Assembly (NCBI GenBank): GCA_963768335.1
Contig: CAVYHR010000006.1
Coordinates: 1-64,000, forward strand
Reading direction: 5' to 3'
Length of the DNA stretch: 64,000 nucleotides
Source: an uncultured Peptococcaceae bacterium
GTDB lineage: Bacteria; Bacillota; DSM-12270; Thermacetogeniales; Thermacetogeniaceae
The notes under the pieces were generated by a model. The model was not told where the DNA came from and ran no database searches. It saw nothing but the letters and a program-made list of their open reading frames with translations. A program made the translations under genes and the position numbers. How positions within the stretch are numbered: position 1 is the stretch's first letter; each line of letters begins with the position of its first letter. Shown here in pieces: positions 37,257 through 43,157 of this stretch.

Positions 37257-37679
37257 TCACTCGTGCCATGGATTATGAACAGAGGCCTGACAGCGCTCCA
37301 AGTCATGTGCATTTCGAGTTACAACAATCAGATTATGGGCAATTGCTGTAGCCGCAATCAGGCTATCGATTACTGGCAGTTTCAAGCCATTTTTTTCCGA
37401 AACGCCTAGAATCCTTCCCCAAGTGAATGCTACATCAAGATCAATTGGCAATATCCGACCCTCAAAGCGTTTGGCCAGATCCTGATCTACCCAGGCCTGC
37501 AGGTGTTCCGCCCGTTTTCCATCACTGAGTTTTTTAATGCCCTTTTGTATCTCGCCAAAAGTAACCACACTGAGAAATAGAGTTCCCTCGTCCCGCTCAT
37601 CAACCCAACGCACCACACTTGGATTCGGCTCTCTTTTGATCAGTTCCGAAACGACATTGGTGTCTAAAAGGTATTTCAC
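37257..37679 (-). CDS. vapC: PIN-domain toxin VapC (type II TA)
   Basis: MKYLLDTNVVSE...acidic PIN residues. 4-nt overlap with the upstream antitoxin. Confidence 0.85.
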   Translation of the reverse strand: MKYLLDTNVVSELIKREPNPSVVRWVDERDEGTLFLSVVTFGEIQKGIKKLSDGKRAEHLQAWVDQDLAKRFEGRILPIDLDVAFTWGRILGVSEKNGLKLPVIDSLIAATAIAHNLIVVTRNAHDLERCQASVHNPWHE

Positions 37680-38767: not shown

Positions 38768-40061
38768 TATGAAAAAGATCACGTCACAGAGGGAATTCTT
38801 CCTCAGTCAGACACTCGGCAAGCCGATCTACGACCGGAACGGCAAGCTGGTCGGTCGCTTGCGGGACATGGCGGTACGCTGGGATAACCACTATCCCAGG
38901 GTGACGGGGATCAAGTTCGCCAAGGACGTCCAGAAGCACATCGGGATCAGCCAGATCGAACAATGGGACGAGCGAAGCATCCGGCTCAACGTGGCCTTCA
39001 CCGACGAGCTGCAACTCCTCACCGAAGAAGAGCTCTACGTCGGCAAGTGGCTGCTCGACAAGCAGATCATCGACACCAAGGGTTCCAAATTGGTGCGGGT
39101 CAACGATATCATGCTGGCCTGGATCGAGAGCGGCCCCGCCCACGACCTGATCCTGGTGGCGGTGGATGTGGGCGTGCGCGGCCTGTTGCGCCGCATCGGC
39201 GTGGAAAGCCTGGTCAGGGGACGGCCGCAGAATCTGGTGGACTGGAAGTACATCAAGCCGCCGGAGTCCAAGATGGACAACCTGCGCCTGACCCTGGAAC
39301 ACCCCTCGCTGAAAGACCTGCACCCGGCAGACCTGGCCGACATCATCGAGGATATGGACAGTGTCAGCCGAAGTCAACTGCTGGCAGGCCTCGACCGTCA
39401 GACTGCCATCGAGGCCCTGACCGAGGCCGATCTGGACACCCAGGTGGAGATCATCACCGACATGGACAGCACCAGCGCCTCCGAGATGCTGGCGGACATG
39501 CCGCCGGATGAGGCGGCGGACATCCTGGGCGAACTGACGGAGGAGAAGTCCAGCGAATTGTTGAACCTGATGGACAAGGATGAGGCGGAGGACGTCCGGG
39601 AACTGATGGAGTATGAGGAAAACACCGCCGGCGCCCTGATGACCACGGAGTTCATCTCCTTCCCGGCTGACACTACCGCCGAGGACTGCATCAACCGGCT
39701 GCGGGAGCTAGCGCCCTCGGCCGAGACGATCTTTTACCTCTACATTATCGACCACGCGGAAGTTCTCAAGGGAGTGGTAAGCTTGCGCGACCTGATCGTC
39801 GCCCAACCTCACACAGAGCTGGGCGCCATCATGCGCTCCCGTGTCGTTACCGTCCGGGGAGACGACAATATCAAGAGGGTGCAGGAAACGGTCGCCAAGT
39901 ACGACCTGCTGGCGCTGCCGGTGGTGGATGAACAGGGTGTGCTGCTGGGGATCATCACGGTGGACGATGTCATGGAGACGGTGTTCCCTGACCGCGGTGG
40001 GCTGGAGAGCTTCACCGACTTCATGACTCACAGCAAGTCCTGGAGGATGTGGAAACCGTGA
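38768..40061 (+). CDS. stand-alone MgtE N-terminal domain + CBS-pair cytoplasmic protein (no membrane domain)
   Basis: RBS AAGGAGG 8 nt before ATG at 38768. The track start at 38628 has no RBS. Acidic MgtE-N helical region (DLADIIEDMDS...EMLADMPPDEAADILGEL...) and two CBS motifs. Ends 13 nt inside the next gene. Confidence 0.8.
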
Positions 40062-41317
40062 AAGGGCTCAAGAGATTCAACCTGTTGTTACCGTCTCTGA
40101 TCCTCTTCCTGGCGATCATGGGTCCGGGGATCATCACCGCCAACGTGGACAACGACGCCGGCGGCATCACCACCTACTCGGTGGCCGGGGCGTCTTTCGG
40201 ATTGAAGCTGCTCTGGATCTTCATCCCGATGACCATCGCCCTGATCGTCGCCCAGGAAATGTGCGCCCGCATGGGCGCCGTCACCGGCAAGGGCCTGTCC
40301 GACCTGATCCGGGAGCGCTTCGGAGTCAAGGTGATCATGTTCGTGATGGCGGCCCTGTTGATAGCCGACCTGGGCAACACAGTGTCCGAGTTCGCCGGCG
40401 TGGCCGCCAGTGGAGAAATCTTCAACATCTCCAAATACATCATCGTGCCAATCGTTGCCTTCCTGGTCTGGTTTATTGTGATCAAGGGTTCCTACAAGAT
40501 GGTCGAGCGCGTTTTCCTGGTAGCCTCCGCCCTGTACCTGTGCTACATCCCCTCGGCGATCATGGCCAGGCCCAACTGGGGAGTCGTGTTCAAGGCAATG
40601 GTCGTGCCATCCTTCAGCTTCAGTCCGGTCTACCTGGCCATGCTGATCGGGCTGATCGGGACGACCATCACTCCCTGGATGCAGTTCTACATCCAGTCGG
40701 CAGTGGTGGAGAAGGGGATCACCGCCAAGGATTACGCATACTCCCGGACGGATGTGATCGTGGGCTGCTTTATGACCGACATCATCGCCTTGTTCATCGT
40801 GGTGGCCTGCGCCGCCACCCTGTTCCTACACAACATTCAAATTGCAACAGCCAAGGATGCGGCCATCTCCCTGCAGCCGCTGGCCGGCAGGTGGGCCGGC
40901 CTGCTGTTCGGCTTCGGCCTCTTCAACGCCTCGGTCTTCTCGGCCTCGATCCTGCCCCTGGCCACTTCGTACTATGTCTGTGAGGCGCTGGGTTTCGAGG
41001 CCGGCATCGACAAAACGTGGAGCGAGGCCCCGGTCTTCTACTGGCTGTACACCAGCCTGGTAGTCATCGGGGCGGGGCTGATCCTGATCCCGAACGCCCC
41101 GCTGATCGCCATCATGCTCTGGTCACAGGTGGCCAACGGGGTGCTGCTGCCCTTCATCCTGATCTTCATGCTGATCCTGATCAACAACAAGGATATCATG
41201 GGCCGGTTCACCAACTCCCGGAGTTTCGACGCCATCGCCTGGGCGACTACCGTCATCATGATCGCCCTGACCGTGCTGCTGGTGGTGATCTCCGTCTTCC
41301 CGAACCTGCTGGCCTGA
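40049..41317 (+). CDS. NRAMP-family transporter, probably the NRAMP-related Mg2+ transporter (NRMT) type given M-box control
   Basis: 11-12 TM NRAMP fold (GPGIITANVDNDAGGITTYS...). Translationally coupled to the MgtE-N/CBS gene. M-box upstream. Confidence 0.85.
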   Translation: METVKGLKRFNLLLPSLILFLAIMGPGIITANVDNDAGGITTYSVAGASFGLKLLWIFIPMTIALIVAQEMCARMGAVTGKGLSDLIRERFGVKVIMFVMAALLIADLGNTVSEFAGVAASGEIFNISKYIIVPIVAFLVWFIVIKGSYKMVERVFLVASALYLCYIPSAIMARPNWGVVFKAMVVPSFSFSPVYLAMLIGLIGTTITPWMQFYIQSAVVEKGITAKDYAYSRTDVIVGCFMTDIIALFIVVACAATLFLHNIQIATAKDAAISLQPLAGRWAGLLFGFGLFNASVFSASILPLATSYYVCEALGFEAGIDKTWSEAPVFYWLYTSLVVIGAGLILIPNAPLIAIMLWSQVANGVLLPFILIFMLILINNKDIMGRFTNSRSFDAIAWATTVIMIALTVLLVVISVFPNLLA

Positions 41318-41344
41318 CGCCGTTGGAAACCCGAATTTCCGTAG

Positions 41345-41373
41345 CCGCCGGGGTTGCCCCGGCGGCTTTTCGA
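41345..41373 (+). terminator. intrinsic terminator after the NRAMP gene
   Basis: GCCGCCGGGGTTGCCCCGGCGGC + TTTTCG. Confidence 0.6.
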
Positions 41374-41676
41374 TCCTCTCCGGATTTTCGGAACCGTTTC
41401 CGCTTTTTCGGTGCTTTTACTGTCTTTAACAGACACTACGCCGGCAGGACAACCCGGTTAACCGCGCTGTCTATGGCAACGGAGAAACCGAGGTACACCA
41501 CCGCCCCGGCAGCATCCGGCAGGCAGGCTGCTGAGCATCCGGCGGCTGCTGCCTACAACCGGAGCCGGTACCCGCCCGCCGGTTCCCGATTGTGGCATGA
41601 AATATGCATGTTTATATAGGCAGGAAAACAAAAACGAGGCCGCCGGAAGGGGCCGGAATGAGGGGAGAGGGCGAAC

Positions 41677-41850
41677 ATGGCAGTGGCACTGAGGACTTTC
41701 GAGGAGCTTGAGCATCGGGACGCAGAGGTGAAGAGGCCGGGATTGAAACTCGAAAAACGGGCCGAGACAGGCAGGGTAGAGTACGAATTCCCCTATGACG
41801 ACCTCTACCAGATGTACGACTACATCACCAAAGAACTGGGTATCAAGTAA
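41677..41850 (+). CDS. small hypothetical protein (57 aa), tandem paralogue 1
   Basis: RBS AGGGGAGAGGG then ATG. MAVALRTFEELEHRDAEVKRPGLKLEKRAETGRVEYEFPYDDLYQMYDYITKELGIK. Below the ORF-track cutoff. The whole unit, including the RBS, is tandemly duplicated. Confidence 0.5.
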   Translation: MAVALRTFEELEHRDAEVKRPGLKLEKRAETGRVEYEFPYDDLYQMYDYITKELGIK

Positions 41851-41922
41851 CAACAACCGGGTAGAGATCTTAAAAAAAACAGGCCGCCGGAAGCGGGGCC
41901 GGAATGAGGGGAGAGGGCGAAC

Positions 41923-42096
41923 ATGGCAGTGGCACTGAGGACTTTCGAGGAGCCTGAGCATCGGGACGCAGAGATCAAGATACCGGTTTGGACACAGCAA
42001 GAGCGGATCGAGAGAGGCAAACTCGAGTACGAATTCCCTTATGACGACCTCTACCAGATGTACGACTACATCACCCAAGAACTGGGCATCAGGTAG
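41923..42096 (+). CDS. small hypothetical protein (57 aa), tandem paralogue 2
   Basis: MAVALRTFEEPEHRDAEIKIPVWTQQERIERGKLEYEFPYDDLYQMYDYITQELGIR. Same RBS and leader as paralogue 1. Confidence 0.5.
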   Translation: MAVALRTFEEPEHRDAEIKIPVWTQQERIERGKLEYEFPYDDLYQMYDYITQELGIR

Positions 42097-42142
42097 GATA
42101 TGAAAGCAACGATAAAAAGCAAAGCCTCTGTCGACTGCTAGC

Positions 42143-42178
42143 AGGCCGGGCGGGAAACCAGCACCCGGCCTTTTCATT
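42143..42178. terminator. hairpin + T-tract between the convergent small genes and the LarE-like gene (possibly bidirectional)
   Basis: CAGGCCGGGCGGGAAACCAGCACCCGGCC + TTTTCATT. Confidence 0.5.
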
Positions 42179-42203
42179 AGCAACTGTTGTGCACCCCCGG
42201 CAT

Positions 42204-43157
42204 CTAAACAAGCACTTCGTTCAGGCTCCCGGTCCGGTAGCCGTCCAGGTCGAGGGCGACGTAAGCAAAGCCACAGGCCTTGATCCTGCCTGAGATCACC
42301 TGCAACGATTCCCGGTTCAACACCTTCTCCAGTTCATCCGGAGCGATCTCGATCCTGGCGATCTGGCCGTGGTGCCTGACCCTGACGTTGCACAGGCCGA
42401 GCTCTATCAAAACGGCCTCCGCCCTGGCGACCTGCTCCAGGCTCTCCGAAGTCAGCGGCACACCGTAGGGGATCCGGGACGCCAGGCAGGCCTGGGCGGG
42501 CAGGTTCCAGTTGGACAGTCCAAGGCGCCGGGCGAGCTGCCGCACCTCCTGCTTGTCCAGGCCACACTCCAGCAGCGGGCTGTAGACAGTGTCGAAGCTG
42601 CGGATGGCAGCCATGCCGGGGCGGTAGTCGCTGCAATCGGAGCGGTTGGTGCCGTCCAGCACCGCCAGGTAGCCCTCCTCCCGGGCGATGCCGGTCAGCA
42701 GGGCAAAGGTGTTGTTCTTGCAGTGCCAGCAGCGGTTTGGCGGATTGGCGGCAATCTCCCCCACCTGCAGTTCATCGGTGGTGATGATCCGGTACCGGGC
42801 GTCCAGAGACTGGGCCACTGCCTGCGCCGACCCCTGATCCCGCTCAGGCATCAGGGGGGAGACCACCGTTATTGCCAGCACGTTCTCAGTCCCCAGGGCA
42901 TCGAGGGCTGCCTTCAGCACCAGCGAGCTGTCGACTCCCCCGGAAAAGGCCACTACCACCCGCTGCAGCCTTGAGATAAACGACTTCAAGCTATCCAGTT
43001 TGCCTTGCAGAGCATCATCCTCTCCTCCGCTCTCCGCAAGCTGTATCAACCGTTCGTTCACTACTTTCACCCCCTCTGACAGACTCCTCCACCACCATTG
43101 TGTTCGTTGGCCGTGAGCACTTAGCCGTCGAATTTCAACACGCTGATCTCCTACCAC
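42204..43157 (-). CDS. PP-loop ATP pyrophosphatase of the LarE / TIGR00268 family (putative sacrificial sulfur transferase)
   Basis: VVAFSGGVDSSLVL (PP-loop), CWHCK Cys motif. The N-terminus of the track ORF reads through a CCAACCA tandem repeat. True start probably GTG near 43070. Confidence 0.7.
   Translation of the reverse strand: MVGDQRVEIRRLSAHGQRTQWWWRSLSEGVKVVNERLIQLAESGGEDDALQGKLDSLKSFISRLQRVVVAFSGGVDSSLVLKAALDALGTENVLAITVVSPLMPERDQGSAQAVAQSLDARYRIITTDELQVGEIAANPPNRCWHCKNNTFALLTGIAREEGYLAVLDGTNRSDCSDYRPGMAAIRSFDTVYSPLLECGLDKQEVRQLARRLGLSNWNLPAQACLASRIPYGVPLTSESLEQVARAEAVLIELGLCNVRVRHHGQIARIEIAPDELEKVLNRESLQVISGRIKACGFAYVALDLDGYRTGSLNEVLV

What the first reader, a model, noticed from the sequence alone, without database searches (positions are those of the whole stretch)
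41640..42100. Tandem pair of paralogous 57-aa genes with conserved termini and a divergent core, missed by the ORF track
A ~245-bp unit (leader AAAACAGGCCGCCGGAAG(G/C)GGGCCGGAATGAGGGGAGAGGGCGAAC + ORF) is duplicated head-to-tail. The products share MAVALRTFEE-EHRDAE at the N-terminus and EYEFPYDDLYQMYDYIT-ELGI at the C-terminus but differ completely in the middle 17 aa (VKRPGLKLEKRAETGRV versus IKIPVWTQQERIERGKL). Each has a strong RBS, and a terminator follows the pair. The antisense track ORF 41458..42183 is an artefact of this duplication. The conserved frame with a hypervariable core suggests diversifying selection, as seen in small signalling, immunity or anti-sigma-type proteins. I do not recognise the family.
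Basis: seen in the sequence. Interest (0 to 1): 0.55.

Follow-up and report, generated by a model that had tools for sequence, protein, structure and literature searches.

The report
Sigma-54-driven tandem small protein genes
Two adjacent 57-codon genes are real members of an undescribed small-protein family of syntrophic/acetogenic Firmicutes; every member examined sits behind a sigma-54 promoter, and the "variable core" is a loosely constrained linker, not a hypervariable cassette.

Summary
Two 57-aa ORFs (41677-41850, 41923-42096, + strand) form a 246-nt head-to-tail duplication that includes the leader hairpin and ribosome-binding site.

They are protein-coding. About 114 homologue clusters (51-109 aa) exist, all labelled Bacillota (Thermacetogeniaceae, Thermacetogenium phaeum, Syntrophaceticus, Syntrophomonadaceae, Peptococcaceae). 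Third codon positions vary most. No Pfam, NCBIfam, PHROG or PDB relative was found.

A new finding is a canonical sigma-54 promoter (TGGCATGAAATATGCA, 41593-41608) 84 nt upstream of the first ATG. The same -24/-12 element lies 70-97 nt upstream in 17 of 17 loci checked. It is the only match in the window and is absent from 199 kb of control loci. Copy B has no promoter of its own, so the pair is probably one sigma-54/enhancer-dependent transcript ending at a terminator hairpin.

AlphaFold predicts a disordered, charged N-terminal two-thirds and one C-terminal helix (EFPYDDLYxMYDYIxKELGI), the only block conserved across the family. That suggests a partner-binding small regulator, but the function is inferred.

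The mosaic pattern reflects an old duplication plus gene conversion of the flanks. Flank dS is 0.09 and core dS is 0.71. Core omega is below 1, so diversifying selection is not supported.

The parts
41389..41402 (+). Perfect 5+5 palindrome CGGAACCGTTTCCG inside a conserved block (about 41375-41412, TTTTCGGAACCGTTTCCGCTTTTTCGG). It is a candidate enhancer (UAS) for the unknown sigma-54 activator, about 190-205 bp upstream of the -24 element.
   Evidence: The block is conserved in the alignment of upstream regions, including L018 and L009. In L009 no Nramp gene precedes it and no T-run follows it, so there it is not the upstream gene's terminator. It is the only exact match in the window. One search flagged it as terminator-like, so this assignment is inferred, not shown.
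41593..41608 (+). Sigma-54 (-24/-12) promoter TGGCATGAAATATGCA. The predicted transcription start is near 41619.
   Evidence: It is the only match to TGGCAYN5WTGCW in the 64-kb window on both strands, where 0.33 are expected. The same element lies 70-97 nt upstream of the first small-gene ATG in 17 of 17 loci. There are 15 hits in 15 non-redundant family loci (201 kb), all at the small gene, and 0 in 199 kb of control loci. No sigma-70-like promoter was found in 41200-42400.
41638..41654 (+). 5'-UTR hairpin of copy A (GGCC-G-CC / GGAA loop / GGGGCC), preceded by an A-rich run and followed by the SD GAGGGGAGAGGG (41660-41671).
   Evidence: The MFE fold is. An equivalent hairpin lies just 5' of the SD in 17 of 18 units and in L063. 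Stem sequences differ (GGCC/GGCC, AGGC/GCCT, CGGCC/GGCCG, GCTTCC/GGAGGC, TCGGC/GCCGA, GCGGC/GCTGC) and loops are mostly GNRA-like. The hairpin is absent in L056 and L064. Its function is not shown.
41677..41850 (+). Small gene A, 57 aa, with the A-type linker: MAVALRTFEELEHRDAEVKRPGLKLEKRAETGRVEYEFPYDDLYQMYDYITKELGIK.
   Evidence: ORF. The identical protein is P0001 in public assemblies, with homologues. Codon-position variability is 0.147/0.096/0.386 in the conserved block. AF2 gives a helix at 41-54 and the rest disordered.
41882..41900 (+). Intercistronic hairpin of copy B (GGCC-G-CCG / GAAG loop / CGGGGCC), followed by the SD. No promoter lies in the 72-nt spacer.
   Evidence: On the minus strand this hairpin resembles a terminator, but nothing there needs one.
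41923..42096 (+). Small gene B, 57 aa, with the B-type linker: MAVALRTFEEPEHRDAEIKIPVWTQQERIERGKLEYEFPYDDLYQMYDYITQELGIR.
   Evidence: ORF. The identical protein is P0013. B-type orthologues are P0011, P0014 and P0006.
42143..42179 (+). Terminator-like hairpin (AGGCCGGG...CCCGGCCU) followed by TTTTCATT, ending the A-B transcription unit.
   Evidence: Fold. Homologous hairpins follow the last copy in L003, L015, L060 and L061. Analogous G+C hairpins with T-runs occur in L009, L018, L019, L054, L058 and L063.

Best explanation
The region is a compact sigma-54-dependent transcription unit. It encodes two paralogous members of an undescribed small-protein family that is confined to Thermacetogeniaceae and allied Bacillota.

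Proposed order of events:
- An unidentified enhancer-binding protein binds upstream. The candidate site is the CGGAA-N4-TTCCG palindrome at 41389-41402.
- It activates RNA polymerase-sigma-54 at the -24/-12 promoter (41593-41608).
- The roughly 57-nt leader carries a stable hairpin directly before a strong SD.
- Gene A is translated. The 72-nt spacer repeats the hairpin and SD for gene B.
- A hairpin terminator (42143-42179) ends the transcript.

Each product is mostly a disordered, highly charged chain. It ends in a single acidic/aromatic amphipathic helix (EFPYDDLYxMYDYIxKELGI), which is the only block conserved across the family. I infer that this helix docks on a conserved cellular partner. 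The proteins would then act as signal-induced small regulators or adaptors, with the two paralogues differing only in the linker.

The pattern of identical ends and a different middle arose from an old duplication whose leader, N-terminal part and C-terminal part are kept alike by gene conversion and purifying selection.

What is shown: coding status, family distribution, promoter conservation, operon anatomy and the evolutionary pattern. What is inferred: the enhancer site, the transcription start, co-transcription and the partner-binding regulatory role.
For: Coding status. There are 19 close and about 114 wider homologue clusters with a conserved frame. Third-position variability is 0.386, against 0.147 and 0.096 at positions 1 and 2, across 16 genes. 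Flank omega is about 0.3-0.5.

Sigma-54 control. The promoter is conserved at 70-97 nt in 17 of 17 loci, including distant low-GC relatives whose flanks cannot be aligned. It is unique in the window. There are 0 hits in 199 kb of controls against 15 in 15 family loci. No sigma-70-like promoter was found. In L012-L014 the gene lies directly upstream of a histidine kinase and a sigma-54-activator response regulator.

Operon anatomy. Copy B has no promoter. Hairpin-plus-SD units are shown, and terminators.

Protein architecture. AF2 on a 68-sequence alignment gives pLDDT 61, with the only secondary structure a helix at 41-54 (pLDDT 75-79). The invariant or near-invariant residues E37, F38, P39, Y40, D41, D42 and Y47 all lie in or next to the helix.

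Gene conversion. In the window, A-versus-B N-terminal dS is 0 and flank dS is 0.09, against core dS of 0.71. The orthologue background is dS 0.14 for Nramp. L060 A and B share R12, V16 and the leader change GAAGGGAG, whereas window A and B share H12, A16 and GAGGGGAG.

Lineage. A member of the neighbouring CBS protein's 90% cluster is annotated Thermacetogeniaceae. Thermacetogenium phaeum carries Tph_c26640 and Tph_c26240.
Against: - There is no expression or proteomic evidence. The T. phaeum homologues were not found in the supplementary proteome tables of two papers. Small proteins are often missed and the stored files may be truncated.
- No enhancer-binding protein and no rpoN gene lie in the window; there is no GAFTGA or RpoN-box motif.
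- The proposed UAS also looks like a weak terminator, and it is not found in the low-GC relatives.
- Genomic neighbours are not conserved across the family, so no partner can be named.
- The AF2 model has low confidence overall.
- Hairpin covariation was judged from individual folds, not from a formal test, and MAFFT did not align the hairpin columns cleanly.
Confidence: 0.6

Rival explanations
1. One reading: the divergent 17-aa core is a specificity determinant under diversifying selection, for example a signalling peptide, an immunity protein or an anti-sigma-like specificity region, and the conserved ends are the scaffold.
For: The A and B cores share only about 5 of 17 residues while the ends are nearly identical. 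The B-type core evolves fast between orthologues: dN 0.28 against dS 0.30, with no purely synonymous codon change.
Against: Omega never clearly exceeds 1 (0.29, about 0.9 and about 0.7), and the counts are very small. The A-type core is conserved among orthologues. The core's synonymous divergence is also high (0.71-1.86), which points to age rather than selection. In L061 both copies carry A-like cores. Family-wide the middle varies in length and composition like a disordered linker. There is no signal peptide, no receptor and no partner gene conserved nearby.
Confidence: 0.12
2. The genes encode precursors of ribosomally synthesised, post-translationally modified peptides (RiPPs) or another processed or secreted peptide. 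The Tyr/Asp-rich C-terminal block would be the modified core.
For: The products are small, occur as tandem precursor-like paralogues, and carry an invariant Tyr/Asp-rich motif. One distant locus lies next to a radical-SAM gene (L019) and one next to a methyltransferase (L009).
Against: No maturase, transporter or protease gene is conserved next to family members; the neighbours differ in nearly every lineage. The units are bounded by their own promoter and terminator. There are no Cys residues and no leader/core architecture. There is no hit to RiPP precursor families in Pfam or NCBIfam.
Confidence: 0.06
3. The proteins are metal- or oxidative-stress-related small proteins, for example a Mn/Fe-handling helper analogous in role to MntS. 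This would tie them functionally to the adjacent MgtE_N/CBS-Nramp operon.
For: The gene lies immediately downstream of Nramp in the window lineage and in a 58%-identical Peptococcaceae MAG. In the T. phaeum lineage a member lies immediately upstream of an Fe/Mn superoxide dismutase gene. The motif is rich in Asp, Glu and Tyr.
Against: Other members sit beside TrkH/TrkA, a group II intron, a kinase/response-regulator pair, molybdopterin oxidoreductase or methyltransferase genes. Each unit has its own sigma-54 promoter and is separated from Nramp by a strong terminator. The Nramp linkage may simply be inherited synteny.
Confidence: 0.1
4. The conserved unit acts mainly at the RNA level, as a sigma-54-dependent regulatory RNA or dual-function RNA, and the ORFs are secondary or spurious.
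For: The leader hairpin is conserved. Leader and N-terminal codons are nearly identical at the nucleotide level between the copies. Sigma-54-dependent sRNAs are known in other bacteria (general knowledge; see the title of PMC10162802).
Against: The substitution pattern is that of a protein: third positions vary 3-4 times more, and the amino-acid motif is kept while the nucleotides diverge. The frame, start, SD and stop are conserved in all members. Flank dS between orthologues equals the genomic background, so there is no extra nucleotide-level constraint. There is no Rfam match.
Confidence: 0.04

Closest known systems
Sigma-54 (RpoN/SigL)-dependent promoters with bacterial enhancer-binding proteins, as catalogued for Clostridiales (PMC6615313)
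   Same: There is a canonical TGGCAYG-N4-WTGCW element with the exact GG-to-GC spacing, at a typical distance from the start codon. It is conserved across orthologues and paralogues, and a palindromic candidate enhancer lies 150-200 bp upstream.
   Different: The target is a stand-alone small protein gene rather than a catabolic or transport operon. No cognate activator gene is adjacent except in L012-L014. This lineage (Thermacetogenium, Pelotomaculum) is not mentioned in the main text of that regulon survey.
Intrinsically disordered small regulators that fold on their target, such as the anti-sigma-28 factor FlgM or the cyanobacterial glutamine-synthetase inactivating factor IF7 (comparison from general knowledge, not tested)
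   Same: The proteins are small and mostly disordered with a short conserved helical binding element. Their synthesis is controlled by a dedicated regulatory circuit.
   Different: There is no sequence similarity, with no Pfam or PDB hit. No partner is known. The composition of the conserved block is strongly acidic and aromatic.
Small Bacillota regulatory proteins such as SinI, Sda or Spo0E-type proteins (comparison from general knowledge)
   Same: They share the 45-60 aa size class and the host phylum, and they act by protein-protein contact.
   Different: There is no detectable homology. Those proteins are not sigma-54-dependent as far as I know. This family is limited to Thermacetogeniaceae-like lineages.
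S-formylglutathione hydrolase / esterase D helix 'PY..YQMYDYI.KEL'
   Same: A 16-residue stretch is similar to the family's C-terminal helix.
   Different: The E-value is 2.3 against PDB and 0.035 against TIGR02821. The stretch sits inside a 280-300 aa alpha/beta hydrolase, and nothing else aligns. I treat it as a chance or convergent helix motif, not homology.

Membership tests
Sigma-54-dependent transcription unit | -24 GG and -12 GC elements (TGGCAC-N5-TTGCW) with fixed spacing upstream of the gene | tested here: met
   TGGCATGAAATATGCA lies at 41593-41608. It is the only match in the window.
Sigma-54-dependent transcription unit | Promoter conserved in position across orthologues and paralogues, beyond flanking-sequence conservation | tested here: met
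   It is present in 17 of 17 loci, 70-97 nt from the ATG, including low-GC relatives that cannot be aligned. There are 0 hits in 199 kb of control loci.
Sigma-54-dependent transcription unit | Upstream enhancer bound by an AAA+ activator (bEBP) | tested here: inconclusive
   The palindrome CGGAA-N4-TTCCG is conserved in the window group, L018 and L009. No bEBP gene lies in the window. A kinase and sigma-54 response regulator are adjacent only in L012-L014.
Sigma-54-dependent transcription unit | Transcription requires RpoN in vivo or in vitro | not testable with these tools
   This needs an rpoN mutant or in-vitro transcription. rpoN is not in the window.
RiPP precursor peptide | Conserved co-localised maturase/transporter genes and a leader (conserved) plus core (variable) layout | tested here: not met
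   The neighbours differ between lineages. The most conserved part is the C-terminal helix.
Any curated protein family (Pfam-A, NCBIfam, PHROGs) or solved structure | Profile match above the curated threshold | tested here: not met
   No significant hits for the two window proteins or for 68 family members.
PADLOC candidate defence protein PDC-M12A | Profile match across the family and the multi-gene system context | tested here: not met
   Only P0059 and P0080 match, at 16-21 bits to positions 6-52 of a 316-position model. The match is compositional.
Cassette under diversifying selection | dN/dS above 1 in the variable segment, with conserved flanks | tested here: not met
   Core omega is 0.29 (A orthologues), about 0.9 (B orthologues) and about 0.7 (A versus B), from very few sites.
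Known RNA family (Rfam) | Covariance-model match at the gathering score | tested here: not met
   Only sub-threshold chance hits with E above 1.

The most novel reading that the evidence does not exclude
The family could be a previously unrecognised class of sigma-54-regulon effectors. These would be intrinsically disordered proteins whose acidic/aromatic C-terminal helix binds the activator AAA+ domain, sigma-54 or RNA polymerase, giving feedback control as a lineage-specific anti-activator or anti-sigma-54-type factor. Tandem paralogues with different linkers would tune the strength or the target.
Probability: 0.12. Interest if true: 0.7.

Novelty: new variant of a known kind. Interest (0 to 1): 0.45.

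Why it matters
It defines an unannotated small-protein family of about 114 sequence clusters, with several paralogues per genome, in syntrophic acetate-oxidising and acetogenic Firmicutes. The family has an unusually clean regulatory signature: a sigma-54 promoter in front of every member examined. That makes it a ready-made reporter for an unknown enhancer-binding-protein signal in organisms whose regulation is barely studied. The family is also present in a cultured strain, Thermacetogenium phaeum DSM 12270 (Tph_c26640 and Tph_c26240), so it can be tested.

It is also a small, clear example of partial gene conversion. The leader and both protein ends of a tandem pair stay identical while the linker keeps an old divergence. 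Read from one genome alone, that pattern can be mistaken for diversifying selection.

Tried and rejected
- Rfam scan of 40800-42800 at permissive E-values: only chance hits.
- Pfam, NCBIfam, PHROGs and PDB-sequence searches with the single proteins and with a 68-member alignment: nothing.
- PADLOC: a PDC-M12A hit was traced, at a cost of three extra searches, to two K/E-rich members. It is weak and covers only the N-terminal part of a 316-position model, so I rejected it.
- Proteobacterial and other 'relatives' from the contig scans are esterase D genes that share a 16-aa helix motif. I rejected them as chance.
- Fold search was not run. The AF2 model (pLDDT 61, one helix) is too poor for meaningful matches.
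- Literature searches for sigma-54 small proteins in Thermacetogenium and for the T. phaeum locus tags found nothing. The Clostridiales sigma-54 regulon paper's main text does not mention Thermacetogenium or Pelotomaculum.
- T. phaeum proteome supplements contain neither locus tags nor accessions.
- An MAFFT alignment of the leaders did not put the hairpin in register, so I did not attempt formal covariation counts.
- A CsrA-site reading of the GGA-containing loops was considered and dropped. Most loops look like GNRA-type tetraloops, and some lack GGA.
- The first exact look-up of neighbouring proteins failed because of start-codon choice. It succeeded after the starts were corrected.
Full report
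**1. Observation**

The window carries two ATG-initiated 57-codon ORFs on the + strand, at 41677-41850 and 41923-42096. A direct repeat of 201 nt (41649-41849 and 41895-42095) is 88% identical with 246-nt spacing, and the similarity extends upstream to about 41630/41874.

The leaders differ by a 1-nt indel and a few substitutions. Each ORF has a strong purine-rich Shine-Dalgarno sequence (the ribosome-binding site). A G+C-rich hairpin with an 8-bp stem at 42143-42171, followed by TTTTCATT, lies after the second ORF. The 241-aa antisense ORF at 41458-42183 is real as an open frame. The same antisense frame carries stop codons in more distant relatives, so it is a shadow frame.

**2. Coding status and family membership**

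A protein search with copy A found 19 homologues of 56-78 aa with invariant MAVAL and FPY.DL..MYDYIT.E blocks. A profile search of 1.84 billion cluster representatives found only 22 representatives. A profile search of the 5.8-billion-protein set found 114 clusters of 40-109 aa (sequences).

Every source name is 'hypothetical protein'. The named organisms are:
- Thermacetogeniaceae
- Thermacetogenium
- Syntrophaceticus
- Syntrophomonadaceae
- Peptococcaceae
- 'Clostridia' or 'Bacillota' MAGs

The cultured strain Thermacetogenium phaeum DSM 12270 carries two members, Tph_c26640 and Tph_c26240. Several MAGs carry two or three paralogues.

In the conserved 17-codon C-terminal block of 16 genes, mean pairwise differences per site are 0.147, 0.096 and 0.386 at codon positions 1, 2 and 3. 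All 17 third positions vary. This is the signature of a translated frame.

No known family or structure matches:
- Pfam, NCBIfam and PHROGs give nothing, and a PDB sequence-profile search also fails.
- The only recurring weak similarity is a 16-residue helix of esterase D (PY..YQMYDYI.KEL). It also explains the proteobacterial 'hits' in the contig scans and is not homology.
- A PADLOC hit (PDC-M12A) concerns two K/E-rich members only and is compositional.
- Rfam finds nothing.

**3. Host and neighbourhood**

Near-identical contigs come from metagenome assemblies. A member of the neighbouring CBS protein's 90% cluster is annotated Thermacetogeniaceae.

In the window lineage the order of features is:
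- a soluble MgtE_N/CBS protein gene;
- the Nramp transporter gene;
- a strong terminator;
- about 360 nt of non-coding DNA;
- one or two small genes;
- convergent PP-loop (NAD_synthase family), MnmA, FdhD and NiFe-hydrogenase genes.

A 58%-identical member in a Peptococcaceae MAG also follows Nramp. Elsewhere the neighbours differ:

| Locus | Neighbouring genes |
|---|---|
| L009 | Methyltransferase |
| L012-L014 | Histidine kinase and sigma-54-type response regulator, directly downstream |
| L019 | Radical-SAM gene |
| L054, L058 | TrkH/TrkA |
| L056 | Group II intron |
| L063 | Fe/Mn superoxide dismutase |
| L064 | Molybdopterin oxidoreductase |

No partner gene is conserved. Copy number is one (L003, L015, L018, L012, L019, L054, L056, L058, L063, L064) or two in tandem (window, L001, L060, L061, L009).

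**4. The sigma-54 promoter**

Sigma-54 promoters are recognised by conserved -24 (GG) and -12 (GC) elements at fixed spacing and need a dedicated activator, a bacterial enhancer-binding protein (bEBP). At 84 nt upstream of the first ATG lies TGGCATGAAATATGCA (41593-41608), a canonical -24/-12 element with the correct GG-to-GC spacing.
- It is the only match to TGGCAYN5WTGCW in the 64-kb window on either strand, where 0.33 are expected.
- The same element lies 70-97 nt upstream of the first small-gene ATG in every locus examined, 17 of 17. These include low-GC Thermacetogeniaceae and T. phaeum-lineage loci whose flanks cannot be aligned with the window.
- In 15 non-redundant family loci (201 kb) the pattern occurs 15 times, always at the small gene. 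In 199 kb of unrelated control loci it occurs 0 times.
- No sigma-70-like promoter is found around the pair.

Copy B has no promoter of its own in the 72-nt spacer. The pair is therefore most simply one transcript that starts near 41619 (inferred from the usual distance to the -12 element) and ends at the hairpin at 42143-42179. Comparable hairpin/T-tract terminators follow the last copy in almost all loci.

Upstream, a block containing the perfect palindrome CGGAACCGTTTCCG (41389-41402) is conserved in the window group, L018 and L009. In L009 there is no upstream Nramp gene and no T-run. It is the only exact match in the window. I take it as the candidate enhancer, with the caveat that the simple scan also calls it terminator-like. 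No activator gene and no rpoN are in the window.

**5. Leader**

Directly 5' of the SD, each unit has a short stable hairpin, at 41638-41654 for A and 41882-41900 for B. Equivalent hairpins with different stem sequences and mostly GNRA-like loops precede the SD in 17 of the 18 units folded and in L063. They are missing in the 'type II' members L056 and L064.

The duplication unit in the window therefore comprises the A-run, the hairpin, the SD and the ORF. The role of the hairpin (stability or translation) is unknown. A formal covariation count was not possible because the alignment did not put the stems in register.

**6. The protein**

AlphaFold2 on a 68-sequence alignment gives mean pLDDT 61. 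A helix at residues 41-54 (pLDDT 75-79) is the only secondary structure, and the N-terminal two-thirds are unstructured.

Family-wide, the invariant or near-invariant residues are M1, A2, E37, F38, P39, Y40, D41, D42 and Y47. The middle varies in length and is rich in K, R and E.

This picture fits a disordered small protein that docks on a conserved partner through an acidic/aromatic amphipathic helix. The partner and the function are inferences. There is no signal peptide, no transmembrane segment, no Cys residue and no conserved maturase, which argues against secreted-peptide or RiPP readings.

**7. Why the ends match and the middle does not**

Both the A-type core (PGLKLEKRAET.RV) and the B-type core (P[VI]W..QE[RQ]IE.GK) are found in several lineages (window/L001, L060, P0002/P0006). 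The duplication therefore predates their split.

Nei-Gojobori estimates, which separate synonymous (dS) from non-synonymous (dN) divergence, for A versus B in the window and for the background:

| Comparison | Estimate |
|---|---|
| A vs B, N-terminal part | dS = 0 |
| A vs B, both termini | dS = 0.09 |
| A vs B, core | dS = 0.71, dN = 0.51 |
| Orthologous Nramp genes (background) | dS = 0.14 |
| Orthologous small-gene termini | dS = 0.14 |

Within L060 both copies share R12, V16 and the leader change GAAGGGAG. Both window copies share H12, A16 and GAGGGGAG.

The termini and part of the leader thus evolve in concert through gene conversion, while the core keeps an old divergence. Core omega is about 0.29 for A orthologues, about 0.9 for B orthologues and about 0.7 for A versus B. 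This indicates purifying to relaxed selection, with no evidence for omega above 1, although the number of sites is very small. In L061 both copies have A-like cores, which is consistent with a longer conversion tract or a separate duplication. Single-copy relatives (L003) carry an A-type core with a B-type tail (ITQELGIR), which hints at copy loss by recombination between the homogenised flanks. I did not pursue this.

**8. Verdict**

What is new relative to the finding is that the pair belongs to an undescribed, lineage-restricted small-protein family whose every examined member is driven by a sigma-54 promoter. The most likely mechanism is a signal-induced, enhancer-dependent burst of a disordered small regulator or adaptor that binds a conserved partner through its C-terminal helix.

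My confidence differs by claim:

| Claim | Confidence |
|---|---|
| Coding status | about 0.95 |
| Sigma-54-type promoter | about 0.85 |
| Co-transcription of the pair | about 0.7 |
| Partner-binding regulatory role | about 0.35 |

No literature or proteome evidence on the family was found.

Noticed in passing
window 38769-40061 and 40058-41317 (+): A soluble MgtE_N/CBS (faint PRC) protein that lacks the MgtE membrane domain overlaps the start of an Nramp Mn/Fe transporter gene. The pair is conserved in all close relatives and in a Peptococcaceae MAG. It may be a cytoplasmic sensor coupled to the transporter.
   Followed up: no
L003 8001-8174, L015 2661-2834 versus window 41677-42096: The L003 single-copy gene combines an A-type core with the B-type C-terminal tail (ITQELGIR). 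L015 is also single-copy but keeps ITKE. L003 and the two-copy L060 are very close (Nramp dS 0.09). This suggests recent copy loss by recombination between the homogenised flanks.
   Followed up: partly
L063 5001-5162 and 5323-5991; window 40058-41317: In the T. phaeum lineage a family member sits just upstream of an Fe/Mn superoxide dismutase gene, and in the window lineage just downstream of Nramp. This is a weak hint of a manganese or oxidative-stress connection. Other loci do not share it.
   Followed up: partly
L012 659-4528 (also L013, L014): A 78-aa family member with its sigma-54 promoter lies directly upstream of a GAF/PAS histidine kinase and a REC-sigma-54-activator response regulator, followed by an Fe-alcohol dehydrogenase. 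This is the only locus where a candidate cognate activator is adjacent.
   Followed up: partly
window 42100-42142 and the homologous 3' regions of L003, L015, L060, L061: The 3' UTR between the last stop codon and the terminator is conserved. It has an A-rich stretch followed by GCCTCTGTCGAC.GCTAGCAGG. L009 and L018 share a CTAGGACCGG...CCTGGCAGGCGG terminator stem. Its significance is unknown.
   Followed up: no
L054 and L058, about 110-140 nt upstream of the small-gene ATG: Low-GC relatives lack the CGGAA-N4-TTCCG palindrome but share TTGTAC-N5-GTAACAA(G) about 50 nt upstream of the -24 element. L056 has TTGTAAAC. This may be a different or diverged enhancer site.
   Followed up: no
cluster of P0013: The 90% cluster of copy B contains a 405-aa member (P0137, Logan/ENA). 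It is presumably a mis-called or fused ORF running through the repeat. I did not inspect it.
   Followed up: no
window 37257-37679 (-) and upstream neighbour: By correspondence with L001, a PIN-domain toxin and a PhdYeFM antitoxin pair lie about 4 kb upstream of the small genes. Relatives (L003) carry Uma2 and MazE-type genes there instead, so this is a variable segment.
   Followed up: no
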